Assembly: GCA_964635045.1 (NCBI GenBank)
Contig: CAZWMJ010000003.1
Coordinates: 12,011 to 76,010 of the forward strand
Origin: an uncultured Gammaproteobacteria bacterium
Lineage (GTDB): Bacteria; Patescibacteriota; Microgenomatia; Levybacterales; UBA12049
Length of the DNA: 64,000 nt
Reading direction: 5' to 3'
The notes below the pieces were generated by a model that searched no databases, was not told where the DNA came from, and was given only the letters and a program-made list of their open reading frames with translations. Positions 1 to 62,472 of this stretch are shown here, one piece after another. A program made the position numbers and the translations under genes. The number at the start of each line of letters is the position of its first letter. Position 1 is the stretch's first letter.

Positions 1-815
1 GCCACAACCACCTGTCAGCTTTACTGCTATTTGCCATCCCCATCGCCTTTTACTTTTTGAAAATCTATTGGCCAACCCCGCGTATTCGTTACTTGTTTCT
101 TGTTACTTGTTTCTTGTTACTTGTTAGTCTGTTTCTTACTTTAGGCCGCGCTTCGATGCTATCCCTGTTTATCGCTTCGATCATCGGTCTGTTGTTGGTG
201 AAACTAACTGTTAAACAGCGGATGGCGATAGCATTGACTATAGGAATTTTATTCACTCTTTTTGCTCTGCCGTTTGGCTTTGGCTTTGTCAAGAATAACT
301 TCCCCGCCAAAGCGAAAGTGGACATCGCAAGACAAGATATAAACAGGCCTTTGTACTGGAGGTGGGCGGTTAAGAATCTCACCTTCCATCCTTATTTTGG
401 CACGGGCCTTGATACTTTCGGCAAAGTCAGCAAAGTGTCCTCTTTTCTGGAGAAATCAACAGCTTTGCGCTCGGATCACGTTCACAACTTTTTCCTGCAA
501 ATGCTCTCCGACGCCGGCATTTTTGGCTTCCTAACCAGCACCATTCTTATCTCCTCCGTTCTATGGCAAGCGCTAAGAAAGTTCAAAGTTCAAAGTTCCC
601 CGGCCTCGCCAAGCGAAGCGGGGCGGGCAAAGTTGAAAGTTGAAGAACGAAGTTTTTATTTAGCTCTCTTTGTTGGCTTATTCGCTTCAACGCTTAACGC
701 TTTGGTTGACTACGACTGGCAGCTTCCCAGCGTATTTTTAATTTTCTGGATGATGGGGGGAATGCTCACTTCTGCCAGCCAAGACGTCTGGCCGCGAAGA
801 GAAGTAGAAGATTGA
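1..815 (+). CDS. O-antigen ligase/Wzy-like polytopic membrane protein, C-terminal part. The frame is open from base 1, so the gene is truncated by the window edge.
   Basis: Frame 3 is open from position 3 through the TTG at 57 to the stop at 815. The product has multiple TM helices. It contains in-frame heptamer repeat tracts at 88-126 and 577-652. Confidence 0.45.
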   Translation, partial: HNHLSALLLFAIPIAFYFLKIYWPTPRIRYLFLVTCFLLLVSLFLTLGRASMLSLFIASIIGLLLVKLTVKQRMAIALTIGILFTLFALPFGFGFVKNNFPAKAKVDIARQDINRPLYWRWAVKNLTFHPYFGTGLDTFGKVSKVSSFLEKSTALRSDHVHNFFLQMLSDAGIFGFLTSTILISSVLWQALRKFKVQSSPASPSEAGRAKLKVEERSFYLALFVGLFASTLNALVDYDWQLPSVFLIFWMMGGMLTSASQDVWPRREVED

Positions 816-5652: not shown

Positions 5653-7668
5653 ATGGTAGAATCAGTAAAAATGATTAAGAGAGTTATTTTTATTCTTGCT
5701 GATACTCTGCGGGCAAAACATGTTGGTTTATATGGGAAAAATCCTTCCCCAACCCCAAATATAGATAGACTAGGAAAAAAGGGCGTGGTCTTTACAAATA
5801 CATATTGCTCTAGCACCTGCACAGATCCTTCCATTACGTCGATTATGGCAGGCAAATATCCTCTTTCTGTACAACTCGTAAATCATGGAAGATACGTGAC
5901 GCTTGATGAAGAGGAACAGGTGGCAAAAGTCCCCCTCCTTCCAGAGATTCTCAAATCGCATAGATATAAAACTGCCGCTATTGACTGGTTGGGAAGATGG
6001 CATAAAAGGGGATACGATTATTATAGTGGAAGAATCAACAAAGATTTTGATGAAGAGTATCCCATTTTTGATCGGCTTCCATTCCCTCTTTTTATAAGAG
6101 CTTTTGATAAACTACTAGTCAAAAACTTTAACCGAGTATTCTTAACTCGATGGTATTACTCCTTCTTAGCAAATCCAAAAATTCCTTATGATACTGCAAA
6201 TATTATTATCGATAAAGCAGTAGAAATATTGGAAAAAAGCCGGCAAAAACCATTTTTTCTCTATCTCCATTTCTGGGATATTCATACTCCTCACATAAGA
6301 CCTAGGGGACTCAGATCGTATCTTTTTGATAGTGTCGAACAAACGTATACTGCGGAAATTAAGTTTTTAGATGGGGAAATTGGGAGATTAGTAGCTTATC
6401 TGGATAAAACAAACCAAATAGACGATACGCTTATCGTTTTAACAGCTGACCATGGAGAAAATTTTTTTGAGCATGATATGCCCCTACATCACGAAAACCT
6501 TTATGAGGATGTCGTGCGGGTGCCTCTGTTTTTTTACTACCATCCCCTTGGAAGGAAAAGAGTAGATACATTAGTTCAGCAAGTGGACATTATGCCAACA
6601 GTCCTTGCCATACTCGGTTTTCCTATTCCTGCTAATATTGATGGGAAGAGTCTCTTACCTCTCATACGAAGTACAAAGAAAAAGATACGAGATTTCGCCT
6701 ATTTCGAAGACATTACGTATAGGAGGCTTCGTTTTATGCGTAACACAAGGCGACGAGGTATCCGCATAGGCCAACATAAGTATATAGAAACATTAAGTGG
6801 CGCTAACGGAGAACTTTATCAAATTACTCCACGAGAAGATTTGTTTCATGTTAAGGAAGAGTTGTACAATCTTCAAACAGATTCTTTGGAGAGGAAGAAT
6901 ATTATAAGGGAAAAAACATATATTGCAAAAAAACTTAGAGAAAAATTGCATGGGAAAATTTTGGAATTGAACAGAAAACGCTTGCGAAATAATCCTGACC
7001 TTAATAAAAAGGTTGAAAGGAGCCTTCAAGTAATTAGGAAAGCGGTAAAACGGTTTAAGGGAAAAGAAATCGCTCTTGCCTGGACCGGCGGGAAGGATTC
7101 TACCGCTCTTCTTCATCTTGCGCGCTTAGCTTTTGACGGCAAAATTCCTTTTAAGGTAATTTTTAATGACTCCACCATGGAGTTTGAAGAAATTTATCGG
7201 TTTATTGAAAAAATATCCAGGCTTTGGGGCATCAAAGTAATTACCATTAAACATTCGGACAAAGAACTGGCGGAATTTCACAATACCCGCGACCGTGAGA
7301 AGAAAAAAGAACTGTCAAGAATTATGAAAATTACCGCCATTAACAGCGCCTTAAAAAAATATAAACTAAAAGGATTTATGGCGGGTATCCGCTGGGACGA
7401 ACATGAAAGCAGGTCCAAAGAAAAATATTTCTCTCCAAGATCGGATCATATACGAATTCATCCTCTTCTTCATTTTACCGAAAGTGATATTTGGGAATAC
7501 ATCAAGTTTTTCGGCGTTCCCTTTGTTGATCTTTATTCGAAAGGCTATCGTTCTTTGGGAGAAAAACCCTTTACTCACAAGGCCGCGCCCGGACAAGGGG
7601 AGAGATCGGGCAGAGAACGCGATAAAGAACAGCTGATGCAGAGACTGCGGAAGATGGGCTACTGGTAG
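5653..7668 (+). CDS. Fusion protein: N-terminal sulfatase/alkaline-phosphatase-superfamily domain plus C-terminal PAPS-reductase/PP-loop (CysH/CysD-like) domain
   Basis: N-domain: ILADTLRAKHVGLYG...TPNIDRLGKKGVVFTNTYC..CTDPSITSIMAGKYP and DHGENFFEHD...VRVPLFFY, which are sulfatase-family blocks. C-domain (about 7030-7668): KGKEIALAWTGGKDSTALLHLARLAF, a PP-loop SGGKDS-type motif of the PAPS-reductase family. Confidence 0.7.
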   Translation: MVESVKMIKRVIFILADTLRAKHVGLYGKNPSPTPNIDRLGKKGVVFTNTYCSSTCTDPSITSIMAGKYPLSVQLVNHGRYVTLDEEEQVAKVPLLPEILKSHRYKTAAIDWLGRWHKRGYDYYSGRINKDFDEEYPIFDRLPFPLFIRAFDKLLVKNFNRVFLTRWYYSFLANPKIPYDTANIIIDKAVEILEKSRQKPFFLYLHFWDIHTPHIRPRGLRSYLFDSVEQTYTAEIKFLDGEIGRLVAYLDKTNQIDDTLIVLTADHGENFFEHDMPLHHENLYEDVVRVPLFFYYHPLGRKRVDTLVQQVDIMPTVLAILGFPIPANIDGKSLLPLIRSTKKKIRDFAYFEDITYRRLRFMRNTRRRGIRIGQHKYIETLSGANGELYQITPREDLFHVKEELYNLQTDSLERKNIIREKTYIAKKLREKLHGKILELNRKRLRNNPDLNKKVERSLQVIRKAVKRFKGKEIALAWTGGKDSTALLHLARLAFDGKIPFKVIFNDSTMEFEEIYRFIEKISRLWGIKVITIKHSDKELAEFHNTRDREKKKELSRIMKITAINSALKKYKLKGFMAGIRWDEHESRSKEKYFSPRSDHIRIHPLLHFTESDIWEYIKFFGVPFVDLYSKGYRSLGEKPFTHKAAPGQGERSGRERDKEQLMQRLRKMGYW

Positions 7669-9131
7669 GAAGAGGTTTTTCTATGTTGGGAAAGTATATT
7701 GATGAGAAGCCCTACTAGAAAAAAGAAAAGTAATCCAACACGATCAGTAAATAATCGTGGTTCCCATACGCCTCGAGTTACGAATGTAAGGAAGCAAACG
7801 AATAGTCCAATAGCAAGAAGCTTATGTTCACCTCTTAATGATCGTATTCCTTTCATAAAGTTCCGCATAATTTCAGCTATGATAGCCAATAAGAGTAATA
7901 GACCGAAAAACCCTAGTTCACTTGTGACTAAAAGATAAGTATTATGAACGGATGCTGGAAACCGTTGTGAAAGAAGATCATCTGTAAAATCATATGTAGT
8001 AAAAAAGATTGGGAAATTACCTCCTCCAATACCCAATAAAGGTGCGTATTGAATTGTATATTGGGCCTGTCTAATTAACTCTATTCTTACATTTAAACTC
8101 TCGTCATCCAAGGAAAAATTGACAAATCTATTAATAATAAATGGATTAAACAATGTTAATGTCATAAGAATAAATAACCAGATGATAAATTTTCTAACCG
8201 CCCCTTCCCAAAAGACCTTATGGGGTCTATTAATTCTTATTATGAGTACAAAAGTAATAAGTATGGAAAATATAGCTATTGCTGCCCCCCATCGAGATAA
8301 TGTAGCGATAATTATCATAACGCCAGCTATAGAGCCCATGATTGAGATAAGTCTTAGTGTAATATTCTGGTGAAATATCATTACAATGCTAACAGGTAAG
8401 AGAATACCAATATAAGCACTTAAAAGATTTGGATGTGAAAATGTGCCAATTGTTCTGAAGTATGGGTTGTCATTTATATATATCAAACTTCGTATAGAGA
8501 GTATAGTTTCTGCATTCTCGATTGGAATTCCAATCAAGCCGCCTTTTACGAATTGCATAGCTGTTATGATTGCTTCAAATACTATTGTACCTACAAGTGC
8601 ATAGATAATACCTCGGAGATCTTTTTGCGCCAGTGTTAGACGCGAGAATACGAGATATACCATAAGACCGTAGATTAGTTTTAACAACCATACGAGTGAT
8701 GCTTGAATGTTAAAACTAAAGATCGTGGATAATTCTGCGAGTGCAAGGAACAGGAAAAGTAGAATCTCAAGTCTCACTGCAAGAAAAGTACTTTTACGTT
8801 TGTAGTATTGATAGATAAGTATCATAATTAGTGGTAAGAAAAGTATGATAGATAACGAGATATTGATTCCAAATTGTCTATTGTTTAATACGCTTGCGGA
8901 GTCAAGCCTTGGGGTGGTAACGGTTGTCAGCTGCAAATCAGATTCAGTTGGTCCTATAGGTAATGCTAAAACAAACAAAAATATCAATATTAATTTCCAG
9001 GGGAGTTTTTTTAAGGATAAAATAAGAGAACTGGACTGGAAAAGTCTGAAAAGATGAAATGAGGAAACAGAATTAAGCAGTTTGTTAGACAGCTTGAAAA
9101 ATGAATTGATCAGCAGACTTTGATTATCCAT
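7659..9131 (-). CDS. O-antigen ligase (Wzy_C)-family polytopic membrane protein
   Basis: 490 aa with about 10-12 TM helices and a central periplasmic loop containing ...RWGAAIAIFSIL..., typical of O-antigen ligase/polymerase family. Confidence 0.6.
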   Translation of the reverse strand: MDNQSLLINSFFKLSNKLLNSVSSFHLFRLFQSSSLILSLKKLPWKLILIFLFVLALPIGPTESDLQLTTVTTPRLDSASVLNNRQFGINISLSIILFLPLIMILIYQYYKRKSTFLAVRLEILLFLFLALAELSTIFSFNIQASLVWLLKLIYGLMVYLVFSRLTLAQKDLRGIIYALVGTIVFEAIITAMQFVKGGLIGIPIENAETILSIRSLIYINDNPYFRTIGTFSHPNLLSAYIGILLPVSIVMIFHQNITLRLISIMGSIAGVMIIIATLSRWGAAIAIFSILITFVLIIRINRPHKVFWEGAVRKFIIWLFILMTLTLFNPFIINRFVNFSLDDESLNVRIELIRQAQYTIQYAPLLGIGGGNFPIFFTTYDFTDDLLSQRFPASVHNTYLLVTSELGFFGLLLLLAIIAEIMRNFMKGIRSLRGEHKLLAIGLFVCFLTFVTRGVWEPRLFTDRVGLLFFFLVGLLINILSQHRKTSSYQ

Positions 9132-26569: not shown

Positions 26570-27595
26570 ATGTTATTTAAGCGCATCGGCATAGATTTGG
26601 GTACGGCTAATACTTTAGTTTATCTGGTAGGCGAAGGCATTGTGCTTAACGAGCCCACGGTAGTGGCTGTCACCGCAGAAGAAGATAGAGTAGTGGCGGT
26701 GGGACGCGAGGCTAAAGAAATGCTGGGCAGAACTCCCGGCAACATTGTGGCTTTAAGACCTCTTCGTGACGGTGTGATTGCCAACTACACTATAACTGAG
26801 GCCATGCTTTCTTATTTTATTGACAAGGCTGCAGGTAAGTCGCGTTTCTTTAAGCCGGAGGTAATGGTCTGTATTCCCAGCGGAGTGACACAGGTGGAGA
26901 GACGGGCGGTTTTGGACGCCACCATGTCGGCCGGAGCCAAAATTGCTTATTTGATTGAAGAGCCTCTGGCCGCCGCCATCGGAGCTAAAATTCCCATTGC
27001 TCAAGCGGCCGGACACATGGTGGTTGATATAGGTGGCGGATCAACGGAAGCGGCAGTTATTTCACTGGGTGGTGTGGTGGTGCACAGCTCGGTTAGGGTA
27101 GCGGGCAACAAAATCGATGAAGCGATAGCCAACCACACAAAAAAGAAATTCAATTTGCTAATAGGCGAGAGAACGGCCGAGGAAATAAAGATTACCATCG
27201 GAAATGCCCTGCCGGAGGGAGGAGCGTCTAAATCAATTGCCGGGCAGGATAAAATGGAAATAAGAGGCAGAGACAGTGTGTCCGGCCTTCCGCGAACGAT
27301 AGAGTTGAGCTCGGTTCAAATCAGCGAGGCCATAAAGCCGGTCCTGTTGGATATTATCCAATCGGTCAAGGCCGTTTTGGAGCAGACACCGCCTGAGTTG
27401 GCATCGGACATTATTGATAAAGGTATTGTGATGACCGGCGGAACCTCGCTTGTCAAAAATTTTGATAAATTGATGACCCAAATAACCGGTGTTCCTTGTC
27501 ATGTGGCCGAAGATCCGCTTTTATGCGTGGTAAGGGGAACGGGAGTAGCGCTTGAGAACATAGAACTTTACAAAAGAAGTATTAGCAAAAAATAA
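26570..27595 (+). CDS. mreB: Rod-shape-determining actin homolog MreB
   Basis: IGIDLGTANTLVY phosphate-1 motif, VVDIGGGSTE, MTGGTSL. 341 aa. Confidence 0.85.
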   Translation: MLFKRIGIDLGTANTLVYLVGEGIVLNEPTVVAVTAEEDRVVAVGREAKEMLGRTPGNIVALRPLRDGVIANYTITEAMLSYFIDKAAGKSRFFKPEVMVCIPSGVTQVERRAVLDATMSAGAKIAYLIEEPLAAAIGAKIPIAQAAGHMVVDIGGGSTEAAVISLGGVVVHSSVRVAGNKIDEAIANHTKKKFNLLIGERTAEEIKITIGNALPEGGASKSIAGQDKMEIRGRDSVSGLPRTIELSSVQISEAIKPVLLDIIQSVKAVLEQTPPELASDIIDKGIVMTGGTSLVKNFDKLMTQITGVPCHVAEDPLLCVVRGTGVALENIELYKRSISKK

Positions 27596-49356: not shown

Positions 49357-49429
49357 TGGCAGGGATGCCAGGATTCGAACCTGGAAAAGCAGTTTTGGAG
49401 ACTGCCGTGATACCGTTTCACCACATCCC
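49357..49429 (-). tRNA. tRNA-Trp (anticodon CCA), CCA encoded
   Basis: Acceptor AGGGATG/CATCCCT; anticodon stem GCAGT/ACTGC with loop CTCCAAA; T-arm CCAGG-TTCGAAT-CCTGG; 3' GCCA. Confidence 0.85.
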
Positions 49430-49484
49430 TACGTTGCTAGTTTCTCAGGGTAAAACCTATTCATATTAAAAAGCTAGGAAATAT

Positions 49485-49660
49485 TATTTCAGTTTTTCTG
49501 TTTCTTTGTGATCGGTGCGTTTGCGGCAGTGTCGGCAATACTTTTTCAACACCAGCTTTTCCGGCGTGTTTAATTTATTGCGGCTGGTAATATAATTTCT
49601 GTTTTTACAAACAGCACAAGTGAGTCCCAAAGTAACTCTGTGTTCGCCTTTTTTCGCCAC
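49485..49660 (-). CDS. rpmG: Ribosomal protein L33
   Basis: Translation (GTG start) MAKKGEHRVTLGLTCAVCKNRNYITSRNKLNTPEKLVLKKYCRHCRKRTDHKETEKLK, with two CxxC pairs. Not in the supplied ORF track because it is under 60 aa. Confidence 0.7.
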
Positions 49661-49820
49661 TTCGTCGCTTTGCCAAGTCAGACTTGGCTTTGCTTCTCAG
49701 CGCAAGCATTTAATCGCTTGAACTAAAAAGCTACCTCCTTCTTTAGAGTTTACACCGATGTTGCTTAAAAAGCAACAGAATGTGAGCCGGCGATGGGAAT
49801 CGCCCGCCTTGCCATTTTTG

Positions 49821-49892
49821 AGCCGACAGTGGGAATCGAACCCACGCTCAATTCATTACCAATGAATCGTTTTGCCACTAAACTATGTCGGC
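49821..49892 (-). tRNA. tRNA-Thr (anticodon GGT)
   Basis: Acceptor GCCGACA/TGTCGGC; anticodon stem ATTCA/TGAAT with loop TTGGTAA; T-arm GTGGG-TTCGATT-CCCAC. Confidence 0.8.
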
Positions 49893-49937
49893 TAAGTTAA
49901 TATATTTTACTTGAAGATTTAAAAAAAACAAGTACGG

Positions 49938-50021
49938 TGCTAAGGGAGGGAATTGCACCCCCGAAGCCCTTTCGGACGTCTGGTCTACAGCCAGATGCGA
50001 TTGCTACTCCGCCACCTTAGC
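49938..50021 (-). tRNA. tRNA-Tyr (anticodon GTA) with long variable arm
   Basis: Acceptor GCTAAGG/CCTTAGC; D-arm GCGG-AGTAGCAA-TCGC; anticodon stem TCTGG/CCAGA with loop CTGTAGA; long variable stem CCGAA-AGGGC-TTCGG. T-loop TGCAATT is atypical. Confidence 0.7.
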
Positions 50022-50069
50022 CTAATTAGCCACTAGCAACTAGCCGCTAGCGTTTAGTTTGAGCCTCCT

Positions 50070-50140
50070 GACAGAATCCCCGCCTGCCAAAGCTTCCGCC
50101 GCTAACTGCGTAAGCTGTAGGCGGATGCGGGCAGGGAACT
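50070..50140. other. Structured GC-rich spacer between tRNA-Tyr and tRNA-Thr
   Basis: Nested hairpins ccccgcctgcc...ttccgcc-[loop]-ggcgga...gcgggcagg. The same CCCGCCTGC / GCGGGCAGG pair recurs at 50325-50373. Confidence 0.25.
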
Positions 50141-50177
50141 GTCGTCATATGTTTATCCCAGAAAATTCAGCCGACTC

Positions 50178-50251
50178 TGGAGCCGACTGTCAGACTTGAA
50201 CTGACGACCTGCTGTTTACAAAACAGCTGCTCTACCACTGAGCTAAGTCGG
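50178..50251 (-). tRNA. tRNA-Thr (anticodon TGT), CCA encoded
   Basis: Acceptor GCCGACT/AGTCGGC; D-arm TAGCTCAGTGGTAGAGC; anticodon stem GCTGT/ACAGC with loop TTTGTAA; T-arm GTCAG-TTCAAGT-CTGAC; 3' TCCA. Confidence 0.85.
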
Positions 50252-50680
50252 CTAGAATTTACGGGATCCCGTAAATCTAAGCCAATTTTATCAAAATTGG
50301 CAAGATTTTACTGGGGCAAAACAGCTGCCCCGCCTGCAATTGCCTTCGGCAAAAAGCCGATGGCGGGCAGGCTGGAACATTTTCATTTTACCAAACAATA
50401 TACTGGGGGACAAGTCCTTGCTCAGGAAGTAAAAAAAGAAGAATAAGTTCATCTTTGGTACAGAGTGCGACTTGGATTTTCCCCAAAACAGACAATTAGG
50501 AAGACTCATCTGCTGACCAAGGCCAACAAATATGCGTCTTGTCATCCGCCATCACTTTTAAGATGTTGGCGGACTACCTCATTAGCGCTGAATTTGTGGA
50601 GGAAAATACTCCAAACTTACTCTTATACCAAAGAACAATAATAGCATATAAGAAATAAAGGCGGATGTCAAGATTTTGGT

Positions 50681-53210: not shown

Positions 53211-53834
53211 ATGGAAACAGTAGAATGGAATAAAGCATACAAAATTTTTTATAGCGATAAAGAAGCAATTCTTGCCGACCTTAAGAGAGAAGTTAACAGA
53301 TATCCTTATCTTAAGGAAATTCTTGTTATCTTAGCCGCGGGGACGCTTATTTCTGCAGCGCTTGTTATGCCGGATATTGCAAAACTTATTAACCCCAGAA
53401 TTTGGCGGGGAGAAGGTTATCGGAAAGATAGGTTGCGACAGACGCTGAAACGATTACAAAAGAAAAAACTGATAGAGGTGGTGGAGACGAAAGATGGACA
53501 GGTAGTTAAGATTACGGAAAATGGTCTAACTCGCGCCATGAAATATAAACTTGATGAGATGAAGATTAAAGAACAAAAATCATGGGATAGGAAGTGGAGG
53601 ATTGTAATTTTTGATATACCGGATGATAAAAAGAGAGTTCGTGACGAGTTTAGGGAGCGGTTAAAACAATTGGGATTTTTTCGATTGCAGGAGAGCGTTT
53701 TTGTGCATGCCTTTCCCTGTTTTGACGAGGTAGAGTTCTTGCGGCAGATTTATGAGGTTAATATCAACGTTACTTACATTCTTGCAATAACAATAGAAGG
53801 GCAAGAGGGTCTTCAAGATTTTTTCAAACTTTAA
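53211..53834 (+). CDS. PaaX-like protein: membrane/wHTH N-terminal part plus Cas2-fold C-terminal domain
   Basis: C-terminal WRIVIFDIPDDKKRVRDEFRERLKQLGFFRLQESVFV follows the Cas2/PaaX_C pattern (vvvYDv..kRR.kv.k.L..yG.rvQ.SVF). N-terminus has a hydrophobic helix and a winged-helix-like segment. No cas1 or CRISPR array nearby. Confidence 0.45.
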   Translation: METVEWNKAYKIFYSDKEAILADLKREVNRYPYLKEILVILAAGTLISAALVMPDIAKLINPRIWRGEGYRKDRLRQTLKRLQKKKLIEVVETKDGQVVKITENGLTRAMKYKLDEMKIKEQKSWDRKWRIVIFDIPDDKKRVRDEFRERLKQLGFFRLQESVFVHAFPCFDEVEFLRQIYEVNINVTYILAITIEGQEGLQDFFKL

Positions 53835-55148: not shown

Positions 55149-57482
55149 TCAATATCCTCTCCAGTCAAGTAATTTCTGTTTGGCTTGGGCGTCATCGGTG
55201 GCGATGTTGGTTAATATATATTGCAAAGACTCGATCGCTTTTTGCTCAAGCTCAGGCTTGACGACATTTTTTGCTTTATCCAAAGACAAATCATGGTAGA
55301 AAAGCCCAAGGGCATAGTAGGCGTCGCGGTAGTCAGGTTTGAGTTTGACTGTTTTTTCAAGAGCAGATATGGCGTCCCTGCCTTTGCCGTTTTGACCATA
55401 CAGCAATCCCAGATTGTAGAAAATTTTGGCATCGGTGGGAGCCAGCAGGCTGGCTTTTTTTACCGCCTCAAGATCCTCGGCCAGATATTTCGGGTCGGTT
55501 TGAGATAGAGCATAAAACATACGGACGCGGGTTTTCCAAAAGACAACATTGTTGGGGTGTTTCAATACAATATCGTCGCTTAAAGCAATTGCCTGCTCTT
55601 TTAATAATAATGCTTGTTGTCCGGCTTGGCTGGCAATAGTGGGATCTGTTTGATTGGCAAGCGCCGCTGCCAAAATGGCGCTATTTATAGAAAACTCATC
55701 GGCAAAGGTCGGTTCATCGCCTCGTACTTGCACGGCCTCCTGCAGTTTGGGATAGGCCTCCTGATACTGCCCAGATCGATCCAGATTGTAGCCCAAAGCG
55801 AAGGCTTTATCGGCCAGCCAGAAACGAAGCAAAGTAAATTGTAAATAAAAAATAACAAATAAAAGTATGACGATTGCCAGCCATTGATAACTTTTTATCT
55901 CTTCTTTTGGAGATACAGGAGGGTTTTGGGGTTTGATTTGCTCGTTCAGGACAAAGGCGAAGGCGGGGATGAGGAAGAAATAGAGATTGATGATGACCAC
56001 CGAGAAGCCGAAGAAGTTGGAAACTAAAATGGAGAGGTAAGCGCTCAAAAGCGCAATTTCCAATTTCCAATTTCCAATTTCCAATGATTTAGATTTGAGA
56101 TTTTTAAAGATTAGCCAAAGGAATGACCCAATCATTATAAGGTAACTTCCCAAACCAAAAATTCCAGTAGTTGCCAGATAATTTAGGTATTCGTTGTGGG
56201 CTTTGTTGTAGAGAAAATCCCATTCGCTGGTTAGATTATGATTGGTCGGGCGATACTGATAATAGGCAAAGGCGAATGTTTCAACTCCCGATCCAAAAAG
56301 GGGGTTATGGCGGGCGATATCAAGCGCTCCCTGCCAGACAAATCTGCGAATATCTCCCGACTCCGTCCCGCCGGTTTCAAGGGCAGGACCCTGTGGTTTA
56401 ACTTCTAACTGCTTACTACTAACAGCTGACTTTTTGAGACCGGAAAGAGTCCATTTATTCAATTGTTCAAAAGGAGAACCGACCACAAAAGTAATACTAC
56501 CAATAAATATAAATAAAAGTATTAAGTATTTAGTATTTAGTATTTTGTATTTGTTAATCAAACGCGTTTGCCAAATGTAGATTGCAATAAAGAAGGCTAG
56601 TCCTACCCAAAGACCCAAGAAGCCTGAGCGGGAGTTGGTGAAGAGAAAAGCGAGGTAGAATAATATAACAAGTAACACGTAACAAGTAACACGTAACAAT
56701 TTTTTTCGCGTCACGTTTTTCGTGTCACTCGCCACATTGATAACAAAAGCTATGGCAATAGGTATTAAAATAGACAAATACGCTGCCAGCCAGTTGGGCT
56801 GGCCAAGGGTGGAGAAGATGCGCACGCGCGGCTGAAAAGCCTCGGTCCAGCAGGAAACATCCAAATTTCCCCGCAGCATCAAACAAGTTGGATCATAGCC
56901 AAAATGAGAAGGCAGTCCCCAGAGAGTCACGATGAGACCGGAGATAAGACTAACAAAGAGTAATCGTTTAACCATTACTATCGCTCGGGGTTCTGCCGCT
57001 CGCTCGTCCAAAGGTGCTCCTTCTAGTGAGCCACTACTCAACGAAGATGCGCCCCTTTGGACGCCTCCGCTCGCGTCACCCCTAGCTCGATGCCATCCCT
57101 CATTAACCACAAAATTACTTAAAAAAGCGTAGTATAAAAATATATAGGAGATGATGGAAAGCAAGCCTCCGTTAAATCTTGAATAAAATCCCCAAATGGA
57201 AGTATGGGTGTCCAGAGAATGAAAAGTTGCGATAATTTGAGAAATCAGGAAAAGAATAATTGGGATATCAAGCGGTGTTCTTTGAATTGAGATTCTTCTC
57301 TGAGTAATCATTTTTACCAGCCAAGCTCCCGCAATCACCAAAGTCAGAGCAAAGGTCAGCCACATCTTGTTAAATTCAAAAAGCTCATAGGTATCCCCGG
57401 CCATGGTCAAAGGGATAAGTAAAAAGATCAGATAGAAGCAGTATTCGATGGCGCGGTTTACGATTTTGGTCAAAGTTTCCAT
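55149..57482 (-). CDS. O-antigen-ligase-like polytopic membrane protein with C-terminal TPR repeats and two in-frame repeat insertions
   Basis: Wzy_C-like loop (NSRSGFLGLWVGLAFF). C-terminal TPR (YNLGLLYGQNGKGRDAISALEKTVKLKPDYRDAYYALGLFY). Contains the (TTCCAAT)n tract at 56051-56092 and a diverged inverted RPE-like copy at ~56985-57110 encoding ...GASSLSSGSLEGAPLDERAAEP... Confidence 0.55.
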   Translation of the reverse strand: METLTKIVNRAIEYCFYLIFLLIPLTMAGDTYELFEFNKMWLTFALTLVIAGAWLVKMITQRRISIQRTPLDIPIILFLISQIIATFHSLDTHTSIWGFYSRFNGGLLSIISYIFLYYAFLSNFVVNEGWHRARGDASGGVQRGASSLSSGSLEGAPLDERAAEPRAIVMVKRLLFVSLISGLIVTLWGLPSHFGYDPTCLMLRGNLDVSCWTEAFQPRVRIFSTLGQPNWLAAYLSILIPIAIAFVINVASDTKNVTRKKLLRVTCYVLLVILFYLAFLFTNSRSGFLGLWVGLAFFIAIYIWQTRLINKYKILNTKYLILLFIFIGSITFVVGSPFEQLNKWTLSGLKKSAVSSKQLEVKPQGPALETGGTESGDIRRFVWQGALDIARHNPLFGSGVETFAFAYYQYRPTNHNLTSEWDFLYNKAHNEYLNYLATTGIFGLGSYLIMIGSFLWLIFKNLKSKSLEIGNWKLEIALLSAYLSILVSNFFGFSVVIINLYFFLIPAFAFVLNEQIKPQNPPVSPKEEIKSYQWLAIVILLFVIFYLQFTLLRFWLADKAFALGYNLDRSGQYQEAYPKLQEAVQVRGDEPTFADEFSINSAILAAALANQTDPTIASQAGQQALLLKEQAIALSDDIVLKHPNNVVFWKTRVRMFYALSQTDPKYLAEDLEAVKKASLLAPTDAKIFYNLGLLYGQNGKGRDAISALEKTVKLKPDYRDAYYALGLFYHDLSLDKAKNVVKPELEQKAIESLQYILTNIATDDAQAKQKLLDWRGY
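56985..57110 (-). repeat. Diverged RPE-like repeat element (copy F) inside a CDS
   Basis: The reverse complement gcgcatcttcgttgagtagtggctcactagaaggagcac aligns to the element core gcgcagttcgttgaagcttgcttcactagaacgagcac. It is a GC-rich island in an otherwise AT-rich gene. Confidence 0.5.
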
Positions 57483-58504: not shown

Positions 58505-58544
58505 TACCTGTAGCCTCCCAGGCCAGGCCTGGGAACGTAATAAT

Positions 58545-59435
58545 TTATTCTTTAACGCACTTCCCCCCGGCGTCGGGGTGGGAGCTATCCAATTCGCAGG
58601 TGTATTCTGTCGGACACTTTGCATCGGTAATCCTCCCGCAAGATTGACCTGATTCTATTTTTAATATGCATATGCCATCGGCACATTCCTTATCGTTTTG
58701 AATGATTTCATCTTTCGGGATTATTGCTGATTTTTGATTAGAATCTATAAATTTAAAGGTGGAGAGAATTTGATCCAATAATTTTATGTTATTTACCGGA
58801 TCTTCATAAAAGACAAACTGAATTATTTTGTCGCTTATAGAAAAAGATACTTCTTGATGGTAGGTGCCTGCAAGATATTGATTTTCCGGGATTATTCCGC
58901 TGACTTTGACAGCATTAACACCGTCAATAATTATGTTTTCGCTCTTTAGATATTTATCTTGCTGTGGATAGCCAGCTTTTTGAAATTCGTTTTTATTCCA
59001 AATTGCAACAGTTACAAGCGCAAATGGTCCTTCGTTGACCTCGTTGATATCAATATCGTTTTCTGTTAAAAAAATCTGGTCGCCAAATTTTGGTGATTGT
59101 TTTAAGTATACCGTTGGCGGATATCTAAATTGGAATTTATATTTCTCGTCCTTATACGTTTTCCAGTTGGCAGTTGGGTCTGTGGTGGGGGTTGGAGTTA
59201 GTGGAGAGGAAGGCTTGATTGAAGTTTGCGGAGAAGGTTTCGGGGTTTGTTTATTTGCTTGATTTTTAACAGCGGACATGATTACTGTGGAAAAGATGAC
59301 AACAATAATTAATATTATTAAAATCAAGTTTAACGGAAATATTTTGGGAGAGGGCGGTTGAGTGGAGAGAACCGGAGATGGAGCAACAGGAACCGGATTG
59401 ACAGGAACCTGGGGCTGCGGCAAATTTTCTTCCAT
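58545..59435 (-). CDS. Type-II membrane surface protein with Pro-rich N-terminus and Cys-rich C-terminal module (paralog 1)
   Basis: The N-terminal 58 aa and C-terminal ~75 aa are near-identical to the 59863..60789 product. The central ~160 aa are unrelated. Confidence 0.5.
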   Translation of the reverse strand: MEENLPQPQVPVNPVPVAPSPVLSTQPPSPKIFPLNLILIILIIVVIFSTVIMSAVKNQANKQTPKPSPQTSIKPSSPLTPTPTTDPTANWKTYKDEKYKFQFRYPPTVYLKQSPKFGDQIFLTENDIDINEVNEGPFALVTVAIWNKNEFQKAGYPQQDKYLKSENIIIDGVNAVKVSGIIPENQYLAGTYHQEVSFSISDKIIQFVFYEDPVNNIKLLDQILSTFKFIDSNQKSAIIPKDEIIQNDKECADGICILKIESGQSCGRITDAKCPTEYTCELDSSHPDAGGKCVKE

Positions 59436-59588
59436 AACTTTACTTTACCATATTGGGAAAATGAGAGCAAGGAAAGATATTATCGGCGATGAGATTTAGA
59501 AGATAGTTTGTAGGCGATATAAAGAAGAAGTCCTGTGATTAGAACTAGAGATACGGCGATTTGTGCAATAGCATTACTAACCCAAAAA

Positions 59589-59807
59589 TTATTCATTTTC
59601 TAACTTTTTCTCAAACAACACTGTTAATAGTAAGAATATTGTACCCAAGGCAATGTCTGCTGTCAATATGAAGATGTCATATATGCTTTGGGGAAGCGAA
59701 ATTGCTGATCCGACAAACGGGACTACAAAGAAAGCGGCAGATATGTTAATTGATAAACCAGAAAGAGCTTTAAGCCAAGGATTGGTTAAAACTATTCTCA
59801 TAAACAA
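59589..59807 (-). CDS. Small 2-TM membrane protein between the paralogs
   Basis: 72-aa hydrophobic ORF. Weak. Confidence 0.2.
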   Translation of the reverse strand: MFMRIVLTNPWLKALSGLSINISAAFFVVPFVGSAISLPQSIYDIFILTADIALGTIFLLLTVLFEKKLENE

Positions 59808-59862
59808 TTTTATCAGGTATTAACCTTACTTTAACATATTGGCAAAAGGGGAGCAAGATTTT

Positions 59863-60789
59863 CTAATAAATTCTAACGCATTTCCCTCCGGCGTCGGGGT
59901 GGGATCCATCTAATTCGCAGGTGTATTCTGTCGGACACTTTGCATCGGTAGTCCTCCCGCAAGATTGACCTGATTCTATTTTTAATATGCATATACCATC
60001 GGCACATTCCTTATCGTTTTGAATAACTTTATCTTTCGGGGTTATTGCTGATTTTTGATTAGAATCTATAAATTTAAAGGTGGAAAGGATTTGATCCAAT
60101 ATTGACAACAGCTCTTTATCGTAGTTAATAGGAGTTTCATACCATGTTTTTCCAAATCCGGCTGCCGTTGAGAACATTTCTAAATTAGGTTCTTTTTTAC
60201 ATATAGTCCATATTAGATTATTGGTTGAAGCTGATTCGGTGGTTTTGGGTCTTCTAAAGGTAAATTCAGCAGCTTTTATTTCGACAAAATCTTTGAATTT
60301 GTCAGACGGAATTTCGGATGGTGGACTATCCGGGAATCGGCAAACATCTGGTCCCCAAGCCATTGGGTTATAGCTCCTAAAAACGTGACCATTCTTGGAG
60401 ATTGAAATATCTTGACTAAGTTGAATGTTTCCATCTTTATAGAGATCTACTTCTTTTGACTTGTCTTCTAAAACCCAACTTTCCGGATACTTGATTGAGG
60501 ATTTGCCGTCTTTAATGATGTAAGTTTTCCAATTTGCTGTTGAATCTGGCGTGAGAGTTGGTGTGGATGTGGGGGATGGTTGGATAGATGGCGATGGGGT
60601 TTGTTTATTTGGTTGATTTTTAACAGCGGACATGATTACTGTGGAAAAGATGACAACAATAATTAATATTATTAAAATCAAGTTTAACGGAAATATTTTG
60701 GGAGAGGGCGGTTGAGTGGAGAGAACCGGAGATGGAGCAACAGGAACCGGATTGACAGGAACCTGGGGCTGCGGCAAATTTTCTTCCAT
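59863..60789 (-). CDS. Type-II membrane surface protein with Pro-rich N-terminus and Cys-rich C-terminal module (paralog 2)
   Basis: See paralog 1. The 5' ~200 nt (60590-60789 versus 59236-59435) are identical at the nucleotide level. Confidence 0.5.
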   Translation of the reverse strand: MEENLPQPQVPVNPVPVAPSPVLSTQPPSPKIFPLNLILIILIIVVIFSTVIMSAVKNQPNKQTPSPSIQPSPTSTPTLTPDSTANWKTYIIKDGKSSIKYPESWVLEDKSKEVDLYKDGNIQLSQDISISKNGHVFRSYNPMAWGPDVCRFPDSPPSEIPSDKFKDFVEIKAAEFTFRRPKTTESASTNNLIWTICKKEPNLEMFSTAAGFGKTWYETPINYDKELLSILDQILSTFKFIDSNQKSAITPKDKVIQNDKECADGICILKIESGQSCGRTTDAKCPTEYTCELDGSHPDAGGKCVRIY

Positions 60790-60884
60790 AACTTTACTTT
60801 ACCATATTGGCAAAAGACTAACAAGCTGTTAGAATACTACCAAATCCAAATAAACAAATAAACCAATCAATAAGTTAATGTTTA

Positions 60885-61281: not shown

Positions 61282-62472
61282 TTGGTAGTATTGGTATGTA
61301 TTGGTAGTATTTTTATGTTAAATCGTTTTTTCTCTCTTTTTTCTCACGACATCGGGATCGATTTGGGGACTTCCAATACTCTGGTTTATGTTACCGGCCG
61401 CGGCATTGCCATTCGCGAACCCTCAGTGGTGGCTCTGCACAAAAAGACCAAAAAAATTATTGCCATTGGCACGGAAGCGAAAAAAATGGTTGGTAAAACG
61501 CCGGCCACCATCACAATAGTCAAACCGCTTCGAAGCGGAGTGATTTCCGATTTTGACGTGACGACGGCCATGATTTCCCATTACATCAAAAAAGTTCACG
61601 AGACCGGCGCCCTCATGCCGTCTTTTGCCAGACCAAAGGTGGTTATTGGTATTCCCTCATCAGTTACCGAAGTAGAAAGAAGAGCTGTGTGGGAGGCGGC
61701 GCTGGTGGCAGGGGCGCGCGAGGCCTTTCTTATCGAAGAACCGATGGCGGCGGCCATTGGCGAAGGCGTGTCTGTTTTTGCTCCGACAGGGGTGATGGTG
61801 GTTGACATAGGAGGAGGGACGACTGAAATTGCTATTATTTCTCTGGGAGGGATTGTGGTGGGAAAGTCGTTTCGGATGGCCGGAAACGAGATGGATCAGG
61901 CGATTTTGCATTATGTCAGACTCCGTCATGGATTGCTGCTGGGGGAGCCGACGGCGGAGGAGTTAAAGATAAAGATTGGCAGTGTATATAAAAGTAACTC
62001 AAAAGTCAAAACTCAAAAGTCAAAACTCAATCAGGTAGAGTTAGATGGAGCAAACTTAAAACAGGAAGAGGGGGAGGGGGGGGAGAAAGTTGTAACGGAG
62101 GTGGAAAGGGGAGAGAAAATGGCAATTGTTCGGGGACGAGACATAGAAACGGGACTACCCAAAAGCATCCGTCTCAACGAGACAGAGGTGAGAGAGGCTT
62201 TGGCGCCGGTTATTAGCAGAATCATTGAAGAAATCGCCGATGTTTTAGAAGAGGCGCCGCCCGAGCTGGTGGGCGATATTTTGGAACACGGCATTTTGTT
62301 AACAGGAGGAGGGGCAATGCTGAGCGGATTTGATCACTTAATTATGGAGAGGACTCATATGCCGGTAATTATTGCAGCGGATCCTCTCACCGCTGTGGTT
62401 CGGGGGGCGGGAAAGGTGCTGGAAGATTCTGCTTTTTTACAGCGGGTAAAAGTAACAGGCGGTTTAAAGTAA
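61282..62472 (+). CDS. mreB: MreB paralog with large in-frame insertions, first gene of mreBCD
   Basis: IGIDLGTSNTLVY, VVDIGGGTTE, LTGGGAML. Possible true start at MLNRFF (61315). About 45-aa insertion including the (AAAAGTC/AAAACTC)n tract 61983-62030. Confidence 0.8.
   Translation: MVVLVCIGSIFMLNRFFSLFSHDIGIDLGTSNTLVYVTGRGIAIREPSVVALHKKTKKIIAIGTEAKKMVGKTPATITIVKPLRSGVISDFDVTTAMISHYIKKVHETGALMPSFARPKVVIGIPSSVTEVERRAVWEAALVAGAREAFLIEEPMAAAIGEGVSVFAPTGVMVVDIGGGTTEIAIISLGGIVVGKSFRMAGNEMDQAILHYVRLRHGLLLGEPTAEELKIKIGSVYKSNSKVKTQKSKLNQVELDGANLKQEEGEGGEKVVTEVERGEKMAIVRGRDIETGLPKSIRLNETEVREALAPVISRIIEEIADVLEEAPPELVGDILEHGILLTGGGAMLSGFDHLIMERTHMPVIIAADPLTAVVRGAGKVLEDSAFLQRVKVTGGLK

What the first reader, a model, noticed from the sequence alone, without database searches (positions are those of the whole stretch)
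58545..60789. Tandem surface-protein paralogs with identical termini and swapped central modules
Two type-II membrane proteins share a 100%-identical 5' ~200 nt (Pro-rich cytoplasmic tail, TM, Pro/Thr linker) and a near-identical Cys-rich C-terminal ~75 aa (C-x3-C...C-x...C-x4-C...C). Their central ~160-aa domains are unrelated. Perfect nucleotide identity of the ends implies ongoing gene conversion or recombination. This is a module-shuffling arrangement reminiscent of variable surface-antigen systems, which is plausible for a host-attached or episymbiotic lifestyle.
Basis: partly seen in the sequence, partly recalled or inferred. Interest (0 to 1): 0.6.

Follow-up and report, generated by a model that had tools for sequence, protein, structure and literature searches.

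The report
Tandem surface-protein paralogs with recombined ends
Two neighbouring genes in a candidate-phyla-radiation bacterium (probably Daviesbacteria) encode membrane-anchored surface proteins whose beginnings and ends were copied between them by recombination while their middles differ, which is a familiar way for bacterial surface-protein families to evolve, seen here in a little-studied lineage.

Summary
Gene A (58545-59435, -) and gene B (59863-60789, -) share 198 perfectly identical nt (21 nt upstream plus 177 nt coding). They also share a 3' block that is 94% identical over about 225 nt. Their cores are 19% identical.

Both belong to a narrow Daviesbacteria gene family that occurs in tandem arrays. 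Each member has:
- a conserved promoter-like element 6 nt before the ATG;
- an 'MEENLPQPQVPV' Pro-rich tail, a TM anchor and a Pro/Thr linker;
- a core framed by 'ANWKTY..YPxxW' and 'LDQILSTFKF';
- an optional C-terminal module.

A's core models as a PsbP/Mog1 fold. B's core is a separate small family. Its orthologues elsewhere have unrelated N-termini and no Cys-rich tail, so B is a chimera.

The 5' block is significantly younger than the 3' block (0/198 vs 13/225 differences, p=3e-4). Paralogues in other arrays are only 59-73% identical there. This points to recent, repeated gene conversion rather than selection.

Across genomes, anchor types, cores and C-terminal modules are reassorted.

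I found no silent cassettes, phase-variation repeats, recombinase or reverse transcriptase. It is therefore an ordinary recombining paralogue family resembling H. pylori babA/babB, not a demonstrated antigenic-variation system. Function is unknown. I infer a surface binding role.

The parts
58545..59435 (-). Gene A, 296 aa: Pro-rich tail, TM anchor, Pro/Thr linker, PsbP-like core, 6-Cys C-terminal module
   Evidence: ORF. Orthologues P0002/P0003/P0004/P0007 have cores 63-78% identical. AF2 model has pLDDT 81.6 and its top Foldseek hits in the PDB are PsbP.
59863..60789 (-). Gene B, 308 aa: same tail, TM anchor and C-terminal module as A, with a different core
   Evidence: ORF. Core orthologues P0121/P0122 are 63-68% identical but have unrelated N-termini and no Cys tail.
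59259..59456 (-). 5' identical block, copy in A (-21 to +177 relative to the ATG)
   Evidence: Direct comparison, 198/198 identical.
60613..60810 (-). 5' identical block, copy in B
   Evidence: alignment.
58553..58780 (-). 3' shared block, copy in A (LDQILSTFKF frame plus Cys-rich module)
   Evidence: Repeat family D2, 94% identical. 13 differences in 225 nt; 6 synonymous and 5 non-synonymous codons differ.
59874..60101 (-). 3' shared block, copy in B
58782..59153 (-). Core of A (aa 95-218), PsbP/Mog1-like fold
   Evidence: Foldseek hits to PsbP 4rth/1v2b at E 2e-5, also CyanoP, BT_1490, Apa, MTC28, DcrB, LpqN, Tsi3 and Mog1. 72 of the 113 sequences of the gene-A homologue alignment hit Pfam PsbP_2.
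60103..60519 (-). Core of B (aa 91-229), a distinct small family with two conserved Cys; fold unresolved
   Evidence: 50 representative clusters in an exhaustive search. AF2 pLDDT 68.6 with no significant PDB match. Only the first hairpin aligns to the A family.
59442..59470 (-). Promoter-like element of A: TTGCTC, 17 nt spacer, TGgTAAAGT, then 6 nt to the ATG
   Evidence: Sequence read directly. TGnTAAAnT followed by 6 nt and ATG is conserved in 9 family genes from 6 loci. The consensus scan did not pick it up, so promoter function is inferred.
60796..60824 (-). Promoter-like element of B: TTGTTA, 17 nt spacer, TGgTAAAGT, then 6 nt to the ATG
59828..59856 (-). Third copy of the promoter-like element, in front of the small ORFs between B and A
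   Evidence: Repeat family D3; sequence.
59589..59801 (-). Small ORF, 70 aa, with two hydrophobic segments, lying between B and A
   Evidence: No family match and no counterpart in related loci. Whether it is a real gene was not shown.
59480..59596 (-). Second small ORF, 38 aa, one hydrophobic segment, overlapping the stop of the 70-aa ORF
   Evidence: Sequence read; no family match.

Best explanation
A and B are two members of a lineage-specific tandem multigene family found in a narrow clade of Candidatus Daviesbacteria (CPR/Patescibacteria).

Each member is built from three parts:
1. A 5' module: a promoter-like TGnTAAAnT element 6 nt before the ATG, a Pro-rich 'MEENLPQPQVPV..' tail, one TM helix and a Pro/Thr/Ser linker.
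2. An extracytoplasmic core framed by a conserved N-terminal beta-hairpin (ANWKTY..F.F.YPxxW) and a conserved C-terminal helix (LDQILSTFKF). This core has the PsbP/Mog1 fold in A.
3. An optional small C-terminal module, here a 6-Cys variant of the family's common 4-Cys 'CGGIAGxxCPxGYxCxLDGxYPDAGGKC' knob.

Homologous recombination (gene conversion) between the two neighbouring paralogues has overwritten their ends. The junctions fall just after the TM segment and at the LDQILSTFKF frame. The 5' event is very recent (0 differences in 198 nt). The 3' event is older (5.8% divergence).

The outcome is that two different ectodomain cores are displayed on the same anchor with the same C-terminal knob.

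Shown: the anatomy, the chimeric status of B, the unequal ages of the two blocks, and the reassortment of modules across genomes.

Inferred: that RecA-type gene conversion is the mechanism, the N-in/C-out topology, that the conserved upstream element is a promoter giving leaderless or near-leaderless mRNAs, and that the proteins act as surface ligand- or partner-binding proteins.
For: - Identity figures are.
- Segment identities: A versus B gives tail 100%, TM 100%, linker 61%, core 19%, C-terminus 88%. The next-best family member reaches only 67% (tail) and 70% (TM).
- A's core is 76-78% identical to P0002/P0003/P0004/L014_337. B's core is 63-68% identical to P0121/P0122, whose tails are 24-25% identical and which lack a Cys tail.
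- The 5' and 3' blocks diverge differently: Fisher p=2.7e-4. The probability of 0 differences in 198 nt at the 3' rate is 8e-6.
- The 5' blocks of paralogues in other arrays are only 59-73% identical, apart from one orthologous pair from two samples at 90%. Identity is therefore not a family-wide constraint.
- Tandem arrays of 3 or more members occur in L013/L001, L014/L011 and L015.
- Reassortment across genomes: two anchor types each combine with several cores. P0126 has a non-A core but shares its linker with P0003 and, by my reading of the sequences, about 90% of its C-terminal module with P0006, both of which have A-type cores. L015 carries a member with no core at all.
- Fold of A. 72 of the 113 sequences in the gene-A homologue alignment hit PsbP_2.
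- The 4-Cys tail sits at the extreme C-terminus in 22 of the 216 homologues held.
Against: - No read-level or strain-level data are available. Recombination is therefore inferred from one assembled sequence plus comparison with other genomes.
- A metagenome assembler could have smoothed a few real SNPs in the 5' block. It did, however, resolve 13 differences in the similarly sized 3' block.
- B's fold is not established: pLDDT is 68.6 and there is no significant PDB match.
- Neither protein reaches the Pfam PsbP_2 gathering score (18.6 and 17.8 bits against 27).
- The promoter-like element fails a plain sigma-70 consensus scan.
- NCBI's annotation starts both proteins at a TTG four codons downstream.
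- The direction of conversion, and whether cores or ends were the moving part, cannot be decided.
Confidence: 0.75

Rival explanations
1. This is a programmed antigenic or phase-variation system. An expression locus swaps ectodomain cassettes at conserved junctions to vary the cell surface, for example for host attachment or phage evasion.
For: - Conserved junction motifs flank hypervariable cores.
- Anchors, cores and tails are reassorted across genomes.
- Arrays are interleaved with toxin-antitoxin genes, which suggests a plastic region.
- The 198-bp perfect direct repeats are good RecA substrates.
Against: - Both genes are full-length, each with its own promoter-like element.
- No truncated or promoterless cassettes occur in 64 kb.
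- No third protein with either end appears in the large protein search.
- I saw no homopolymer or short-repeat tracts at the 5' ends when reading them; this was not a formal scan.
- No recombinase, invertase or reverse transcriptase was found among the ORFs scanned. These were most ORFs of 210 aa or more plus the ORFs next to the two genes; four ORFs of 210 aa or more between 39.3 and 44.9 kb, and most ORFs shorter than 210 aa, were not scanned.
- The repeats are direct, so recombination between them deletes DNA rather than switching cassettes.
Confidence: 0.1
2. This is an assembly artefact. The tandem arrangement or the perfect identity was created by repeat collapse or by joining two strain variants of a single locus.
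For: The sequence comes from a metagenome-assembled contig. A 198-nt repeat exceeds typical k-mer sizes and read lengths. Contigs carrying the related gene P0004 often end just after that gene.
Against: - A unique 427-nt spacer, with its own promoter copy and small ORFs, links B's 3' end to A's 5' end.
- The 3' block retains 13 differences, so the assembler did separate the two copies.
- Independent assemblies of related genomes show the same tandem organisation.
Confidence: 0.06
3. A recent tandem duplication of one gene was followed by very fast divergence of the centre under diversifying selection, with no recombination.
For: The genes are adjacent and in the same orientation, with very similar ends.
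Against: The cores are unalignable at 19% identity. Each core has its own orthologues at 63-78% identity in other genomes. That cannot arise by divergence within the time in which 198 nt accumulated no change.
Confidence: 0.02
4. Purifying selection on the nucleotide sequence itself, acting on the promoter, a 5' mRNA element or a leaderless start, keeps the 5' ends identical without any exchange.
For: The upstream TGnTAAAnT-N6-ATG element and the MEENLPQ tail are conserved across genomes.
Against: Between genomes, and between paralogues in other arrays, the same 198 nt are only 59-73% identical with many synonymous changes. Selection therefore does not hold the DNA sequence fixed.
Confidence: 0.03
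5. This is a diversity-generating retroelement target, with the 3' blocks acting as a template/variable repeat pair.
For: DGRs are common in CPR genomes (from my own knowledge). The 3' blocks form a near-identical repeat pair at gene ends.
Against: The 13 differences are mostly transitions in both directions (G>A 4, T>C 3, C>T 3, A>G 2, C>A 1), not adenine-specific. Both copies are in-frame parts of full genes. No reverse transcriptase was found among the ORFs scanned.
Confidence: 0.01

Closest known systems
Helicobacter pylori BabA/BabB/BabC outer-membrane adhesin paralogues
   Same: [quoted passage not shown] Intragenomic gene conversion makes chimeric genes, with junctions within about 60-240 bp of the start codon and in the 3' homology region (PMC4552749). 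This is the same evolutionary mechanism and the same end-middle-end anatomy.
   Different: The proteins are unrelated: Bab proteins are beta-barrel OMPs of a diderm, whereas these are single-pass anchored PsbP-like ectodomains of a CPR bacterium. The bab loci are dispersed and use CT-repeat phase variation. Here the genes are adjacent and no such repeats were seen. For bab, switching has been observed in isolates; here it is only inferred.
Pfam PsbP_2 (PF18933) and the PsbP/Mog1 fold of secreted or anchored bacterial proteins (CyanoP, M. tuberculosis LpqN, MTC28, Apa, Salmonella DcrB, Tsi3)
   Same: A's core models as this fold. 72 of the 113 sequences of the gene-A homologue alignment match PF18933. 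The architecture is an N-terminal anchor followed by an ectodomain.
   Different: A and B themselves score below the Pfam threshold, and only over the TM, linker and first strands. B's core is not detectably related beyond the first hairpin. The conserved MEENLPQ tail, the promoter-like element and the Cys-rich C-terminal knobs are not part of that family's definition.
Mycoplasma variable lipoprotein families (Vlp/Vsa type), recalled from my own knowledge and not tested here
   Same: These are clustered surface-protein genes that share a highly conserved promoter, 5' UTR and N-terminal anchor-coding region followed by divergent external regions.
   Different: Those systems switch by homopolymer-tract or site-specific inversion mechanisms and vary by internal tandem repeats. 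I saw none of this when reading the 5' sequences and repeat output or among the neighbouring ORFs.

Membership tests
Pfam PsbP_2 (PF18933) / PsbP-Mog1 fold | Whole-protein HMM score at or above the gathering threshold (27 bits) | tested here: not met
   A scores 18.6 bits and B 17.8 bits. Both matches cover only the TM, linker and first strands.
Pfam PsbP_2 (PF18933) / PsbP-Mog1 fold | PsbP/Mog1 alpha-beta-alpha sandwich fold of the ectodomain (gene A) | tested here: met
   The AF2 core has pLDDT above 90. Foldseek finds PsbP 4rth/1v2b/2vu4 at E 2e-5 to 6e-5, plus CyanoP, DcrB, LpqN and Mog1.
Pfam PsbP_2 (PF18933) / PsbP-Mog1 fold | The same fold for gene B's ectodomain | tested here: inconclusive
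Pfam PsbP_2 (PF18933) / PsbP-Mog1 fold | Sequence homologues are members of the family | tested here: met
   72 of the 113 sequences of the gene-A homologue alignment match PF18933, with a best E of 1.5e-14.
Gene-conversion-homogenised surface paralogues (Bab-like) | Near-identical 5' and 3' regions flanking a divergent middle in paralogues of one genome | tested here: met
   198/198 nt at the 5' end, 94% at the 3' end, cores 19% identical.
Gene-conversion-homogenised surface paralogues (Bab-like) | End similarity within the genome exceeds that between orthologues (concerted evolution or chimerism) | tested here: met
   A versus B tail and TM are 100% identical, against at most 70% for any other family member. 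B-core orthologues carry unrelated tails. The 5' blocks in other arrays are 59-73% identical.
Gene-conversion-homogenised surface paralogues (Bab-like) | Recombinant or chimeric variants observed among strains or within a population | not testable with these tools
   No reads are available. No second copy of this strain was found in the genome or metagenome scans. The window's proteins are not in the contig index.
Programmed antigenic-variation cassette systems (pilE/pilS, vlsE, msp2 type) | One expression site plus several promoterless or truncated silent cassettes | tested here: not met
   There are only two copies, both full-length, each with its own promoter-like element. No further copies occur in 64 kb, and no third protein shares either end. 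Other contigs of the genome could not be read.
Phase-variable surface gene families (slipped-strand or invertible promoter) | Homopolymer or short tandem repeat in the promoter or 5' CDS, or inverted repeats plus an invertase | tested here: not met
   No such tract was seen in the 5' regions read by eye; this was not a formal scan. The inverted repeats found are short and imperfect. No recombinase was found among the ORFs scanned.
Diversity-generating retroelement | Template/variable repeat pair differing at adenines of the template, with a reverse transcriptase nearby | tested here: not met
   The differences are mixed transitions with no adenine bias. No RT was found among the ORFs scanned, which were most ORFs of 210 aa or more plus the ORFs next to the two genes; four ORFs of 210 aa or more at 39.3-44.9 kb and most shorter ORFs were not scanned.

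The most novel reading that the evidence does not exclude
Daviesbacteria may carry a three-module combinatorial surface-protein system. In it, a fixed expression-and-anchor module (leaderless promoter, MEENLPQ tail, TM) and interchangeable C-terminal knobs would be recombined with a library of ectodomain cores. The two conserved junction motifs (ANWKTY..YPxxW and LDQILSTFKF) would serve as recombination sites, letting these ultra-small, probably partner-dependent cells change binding specificity on short timescales.
Probability: 0.12. Interest if true: 0.6.

Novelty: new member of a known kind. Interest (0 to 1): 0.35.

Why it matters
CPR/Patescibacteria have tiny genomes, and many depend on other cells. 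How they recognise partners or surfaces is largely unknown. This locus shows that a narrow Daviesbacteria clade invests in an expanding, recombining family of anchored ectodomain proteins with conserved expression and anchor modules and reassorted cores and tails. That gives a concrete candidate set for surface-interaction proteins. It also gives a clean natural example of concerted evolution in a CPR genome. The mechanism itself, gene conversion between paralogues with conserved ends, is well known from other bacteria, so the finding extends a known principle rather than establishing a new one.

Tried and rejected
- **Further copies in the window.** tblastn and blastn with both end modules found none, apart from a third copy of the leader.
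- **Source genome and extra cassettes.**
  - The exact-protein contig look-ups failed.
  - The leader+MEENLPQ pattern found 1 locus in genome contigs and 6 in metagenome contigs. All come from other strains and none from this one.
- **Homology of the two cores.**
  - hhalign with shallow profiles, deeper profiles and an exhaustive-search-derived profile aligns only the first hairpin.
  - B's model has no significant PDB match.
- **C-terminal Cys module.** Pfam gives only a sub-threshold Lustrin_cystein match (E 0.004). There is no PDB sequence match and no NCBIfam match. A homologue search with the module alone returned nothing because of the word filter.
- **Synteny.** None of the window's neighbouring genes (nadC, IVP, mreBCD, Wzy/TPR) occur in the related loci.
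- **DGR, shufflon, phase variation, duplication-plus-divergence and nucleotide-level selection.** I considered and rejected each of these; the reasons are given under the rival explanations.
- **Literature.** No paper links PsbP-like proteins with CPR, or gene conversion with Patescibacteria surface proteins.
Full report
**1. The observation.**

Two ORFs lie on the minus strand: gene A (58545-59435, 296 aa) and gene B (59863-60789, 308 aa). Direct comparison shows that the 21 nt before the ATG and the first 177 coding nt are identical, 198 nt in all. One mismatch and 16 further identical nt follow, giving 220 nt at 99.1%.

The 3' ends share a 228-nt block at 94% identity. That is 13 differences in 225 aligned coding nt, with 6 synonymous and 5 non-synonymous codons differing. 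At the protein level the tail and TM segment are 100% identical, the linker 61%, the core 19% and the C-terminal region 88%.

tblastn and blastn find no further copy of either end in the 64-kb window. The one exception is a third copy of the ~30-nt leader at 59821-59857 (family D3).
- The identical block includes upstream non-coding sequence.
- The Cys pattern is C-x4-C-x9-C-x7-C-x5-C-x12-C.
- The non-alignable centre is about 120-140 aa.
- Both centres are bracketed by shared motifs.

**2. What the genes are.**

A search of 5.8 billion proteins finds both proteins on one 79.4-kb NCBI contig (P0001 and P0005). There they are annotated from a TTG four codons downstream.

A small set of close relatives all begin MEENLPQPQVPV... 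and then have a TM helix, a Pro/Thr/Ser linker, the motif (T)ANWKTY..F.F.YP, and later LDQILSTFKF(I/L)D. One is named as Candidatus Daviesbacteria (P0004). The only hit among GTDB representative genomes is also a Daviesbacteria MAG. I therefore infer that the window comes from that CPR lineage.

72 of the 113 sequences in the gene-A homologue alignment match Pfam PsbP_2. A and B themselves score below threshold, and only over the TM, linker and first strands. An AlphaFold model of A's ectodomain (pLDDT 81.6, core above 90) matches PsbP, CyanoP, BT_1490, Apa, MTC28, DcrB, LpqN, Tsi3 and Mog1. A's core therefore has the PsbP/Mog1 fold.

B's model is weaker (pLDDT 68.6) and has no significant PDB match. 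Its order of strands and helices parallels A's, but the fold is not established. An exhaustive HMMER search with the 122-aa middle of B finds only about 50 representative clusters. The family has two nearly invariant Cys. Profile-profile comparison with the A family aligns only the TM, linker and first hairpin.

The last ~30 aa of A and B are a variant of a 4-Cys module, (F)CGGIAGxxCPxGYxCxLDGxYPDAGGKCVK. This module sits at the extreme C-terminus of 22 of the 216 homologues held. It has no significant match in Pfam, NCBIfam or the PDB.

**3. Family organisation elsewhere.**

Related contigs carry tandem arrays:
- L013/L001 holds three members. One has an A-type core with a Fervidolysin-prodomain-like tail, one is P0012 with the 4-Cys tail, and one is P0010 with no tail. 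DUF5678 and aspartic-protease genes lie between them.
- L014/L011 adds a fourth member upstream, which has a different Cys-rich tail.
- L015 has three in a row, including a 135-aa member with the anchor and 4-Cys tail but no core.
- Toxin-antitoxin pairs (PIN/PhdYeFM, PIN/HTH_17, HepT/MNT) are interleaved with family genes.

Upstream of nearly every member sits TGnTAAAnT followed by exactly 6 nt and then the ATG. In the window, a TTG-type hexamer lies 17 nt further upstream of it. This looks like an extended -10 promoter and would give leaderless or near-leaderless mRNAs. That is an inference: the plain consensus scan does not score it, and a GGAAGA...TTG alternative start exists.

**4. Why recombination.**

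- B's core orthologues (P0121, P0122, P0124) have unrelated N-terminal tails, 24-28% identical, and no Cys-rich tail. B's own tail and TM are 100% identical to A's. B is therefore a chimera of a B-type core and family-type ends.
- A's tail and linker resemble those of A-type orthologues in other genomes (L014_337: tail 67%, linker 82%). This suggests that A's 5' module is native and was copied onto B. The direction is inferred.
- The same 198 nt are only 59-73% identical between paralogues in other arrays and between genomes, with many synonymous changes. Selection on the DNA or protein therefore does not explain perfect identity.
- The two blocks differ in age: 0/198 against 13/225 differences, Fisher p=2.7e-4. 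There were at least two events, and the 5' one is very recent.
- The 6-Cys tail variant was seen only in A and B among the sequences I held. That fits a change arising in one copy and then being spread to the other.
- The differences in the 3' block are mixed transitions, not adenine-specific, which excludes a DGR-type origin.

**5. Module reassortment at family scale.**

Two anchor types exist: LILIILI..KNQ and WILIIALLAG..KSQS. A-type cores occur with both, and each anchor type occurs with several other cores.

A-type cores carry at least five different C-terminal modules: 6-Cys, 4-Cys, Fervidolysin-prodomain-like, an 'NCEIIGDYIYHSGEKG' module and an 'FKENRASARDIMRK' module. P0126 has a different core, yet it shares its linker with P0003 and, by my reading of the sequences, about 90% of its C-terminal module with P0006, both of which have A-type cores.

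The junctions coincide with the two conserved frame motifs.

**6. What was not found.**

- There are no truncated or promoterless cassettes.
- No third protein with either end appears in the large database.
- I saw no homopolymer or short-repeat tract at the 5' ends when reading them; this was not a formal scan.
- No recombinase, invertase or reverse transcriptase was found among the ORFs scanned. These were most ORFs of 210 aa or more plus the ORFs next to the two genes. Four ORFs of 210 aa or more between 39.3 and 44.9 kb, and most ORFs shorter than 210 aa, were not scanned.
- The scanned neighbours are housekeeping or envelope genes: QPRTase, a 23S-rRNA-IVS protein, MreBCD and a Wzy_C/TPR membrane protein.
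- The repeats are direct, so crossing-over between them would delete a core rather than switch it.

A programmed antigenic-variation system is therefore not supported, though it is not excluded without population data.

**7. Mechanism and function (my commitment).**

I conclude, with confidence about 0.75, that these are two paralogues of a recombining family of single-pass anchored extracytoplasmic proteins. I conclude that their ends were homogenised by homologous gene conversion between neighbouring copies. I also conclude that the consequence is two different ectodomains presented on an identical anchor and C-terminal knob.

By analogy with other PsbP/Mog1-fold envelope proteins, the most likely role of the cores is binding a ligand or partner at the cell surface. 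This is inference only.

The closest known analogue in mechanism is H. pylori babA/babB/babC. [quoted passage not shown] The proteins themselves are unrelated.

**8. Verdict.**

This is a real feature, correctly observed, and a new member of a known kind of phenomenon. The interest is moderate and lies in the lineage (CPR) and in the clean three-module organisation, not in the mechanism.

Noticed in passing
window 59442-59470, 59828-59856, 60796-60824 (-); L013, L015, L016, L003 upstream of family genes: A conserved TGnTAAAnT element lies exactly 6 nt before the ATG of family genes in several genomes. In the window a TTG-type hexamer lies 17 nt further upstream. It looks like an extended -10 promoter that would give leaderless mRNAs. 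NCBI instead starts both proteins at a TTG four codons downstream, behind a GGAAGA motif.
   Followed up: partly
window 59480-59801 (-): Two overlapping small ORFs (70 aa with two hydrophobic segments, 38 aa with one) sit between B and A behind a third copy of the family promoter-like element. They have no family matches and no counterpart in related loci.
   Followed up: partly
L015 1184-1591; L013 1100-1951: L015 carries a 135-aa family member with an anchor, a Cys-containing insert and the 4-Cys tail but no PsbP-like core. P0012 has the same insert together with a core. This looks like a product of deletion or recombination within the family.
   Followed up: no
L015, L016, L017, L001: In related genomes the family genes are interleaved with toxin-antitoxin pairs (PIN/PhdYeFM, PIN/HTH_17, HepT/MNT) and a retropepsin-like gene. 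In two loci (L001, L017) a yebC/TACO1 gene lies just downstream, and in L003 and L017 a TPR gene lies upstream. This suggests a plastic region that differs in location from the window's locus.
   Followed up: no
window 58517-58533: A perfect GC-rich hairpin (CCCAGGCC-T-GGCCTGGG) lies between the convergent ends of gene A and the QPRTase gene. It may be a bidirectional terminator, but it has no T-run.
   Followed up: no
window 26570-27595 and 61282-62472 (+): There appear to be two MreB-type genes in one window. The first is a canonical 341-aa MreB by Pfam. The second is a 396-aa ORF upstream of the ORFs I take to be mreC and mreD. I named it MreB from its sequence without testing it, and it appears to carry a Lys/Glu-rich insertion.
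   Followed up: no
window 49360-50252 (-): A cluster of four tRNA genes lies in a 0.9-kb stretch.
   Followed up: no
window 53211-53834 (+): A 207-aa protein has a PaaX_M / Cas2-like domain. No other CRISPR-associated family turned up among the ORFs scanned, and I did not search for a CRISPR array.
   Followed up: no
P0123 (404 aa, JGI): One B-core relative carries two framed domains in tandem: a generic PsbP-like domain followed by a B-type core. The framed unit therefore also duplicates within a single protein.
   Followed up: no
window 57-815, 7659-9131, 55149-57482: Three Wzy_C (O-antigen-ligase-like) membrane proteins lie in one 64-kb window, one of them fused to TPR repeats, alongside many glycosyltransferases. 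This is an envelope-polysaccharide-rich region.
   Followed up: no
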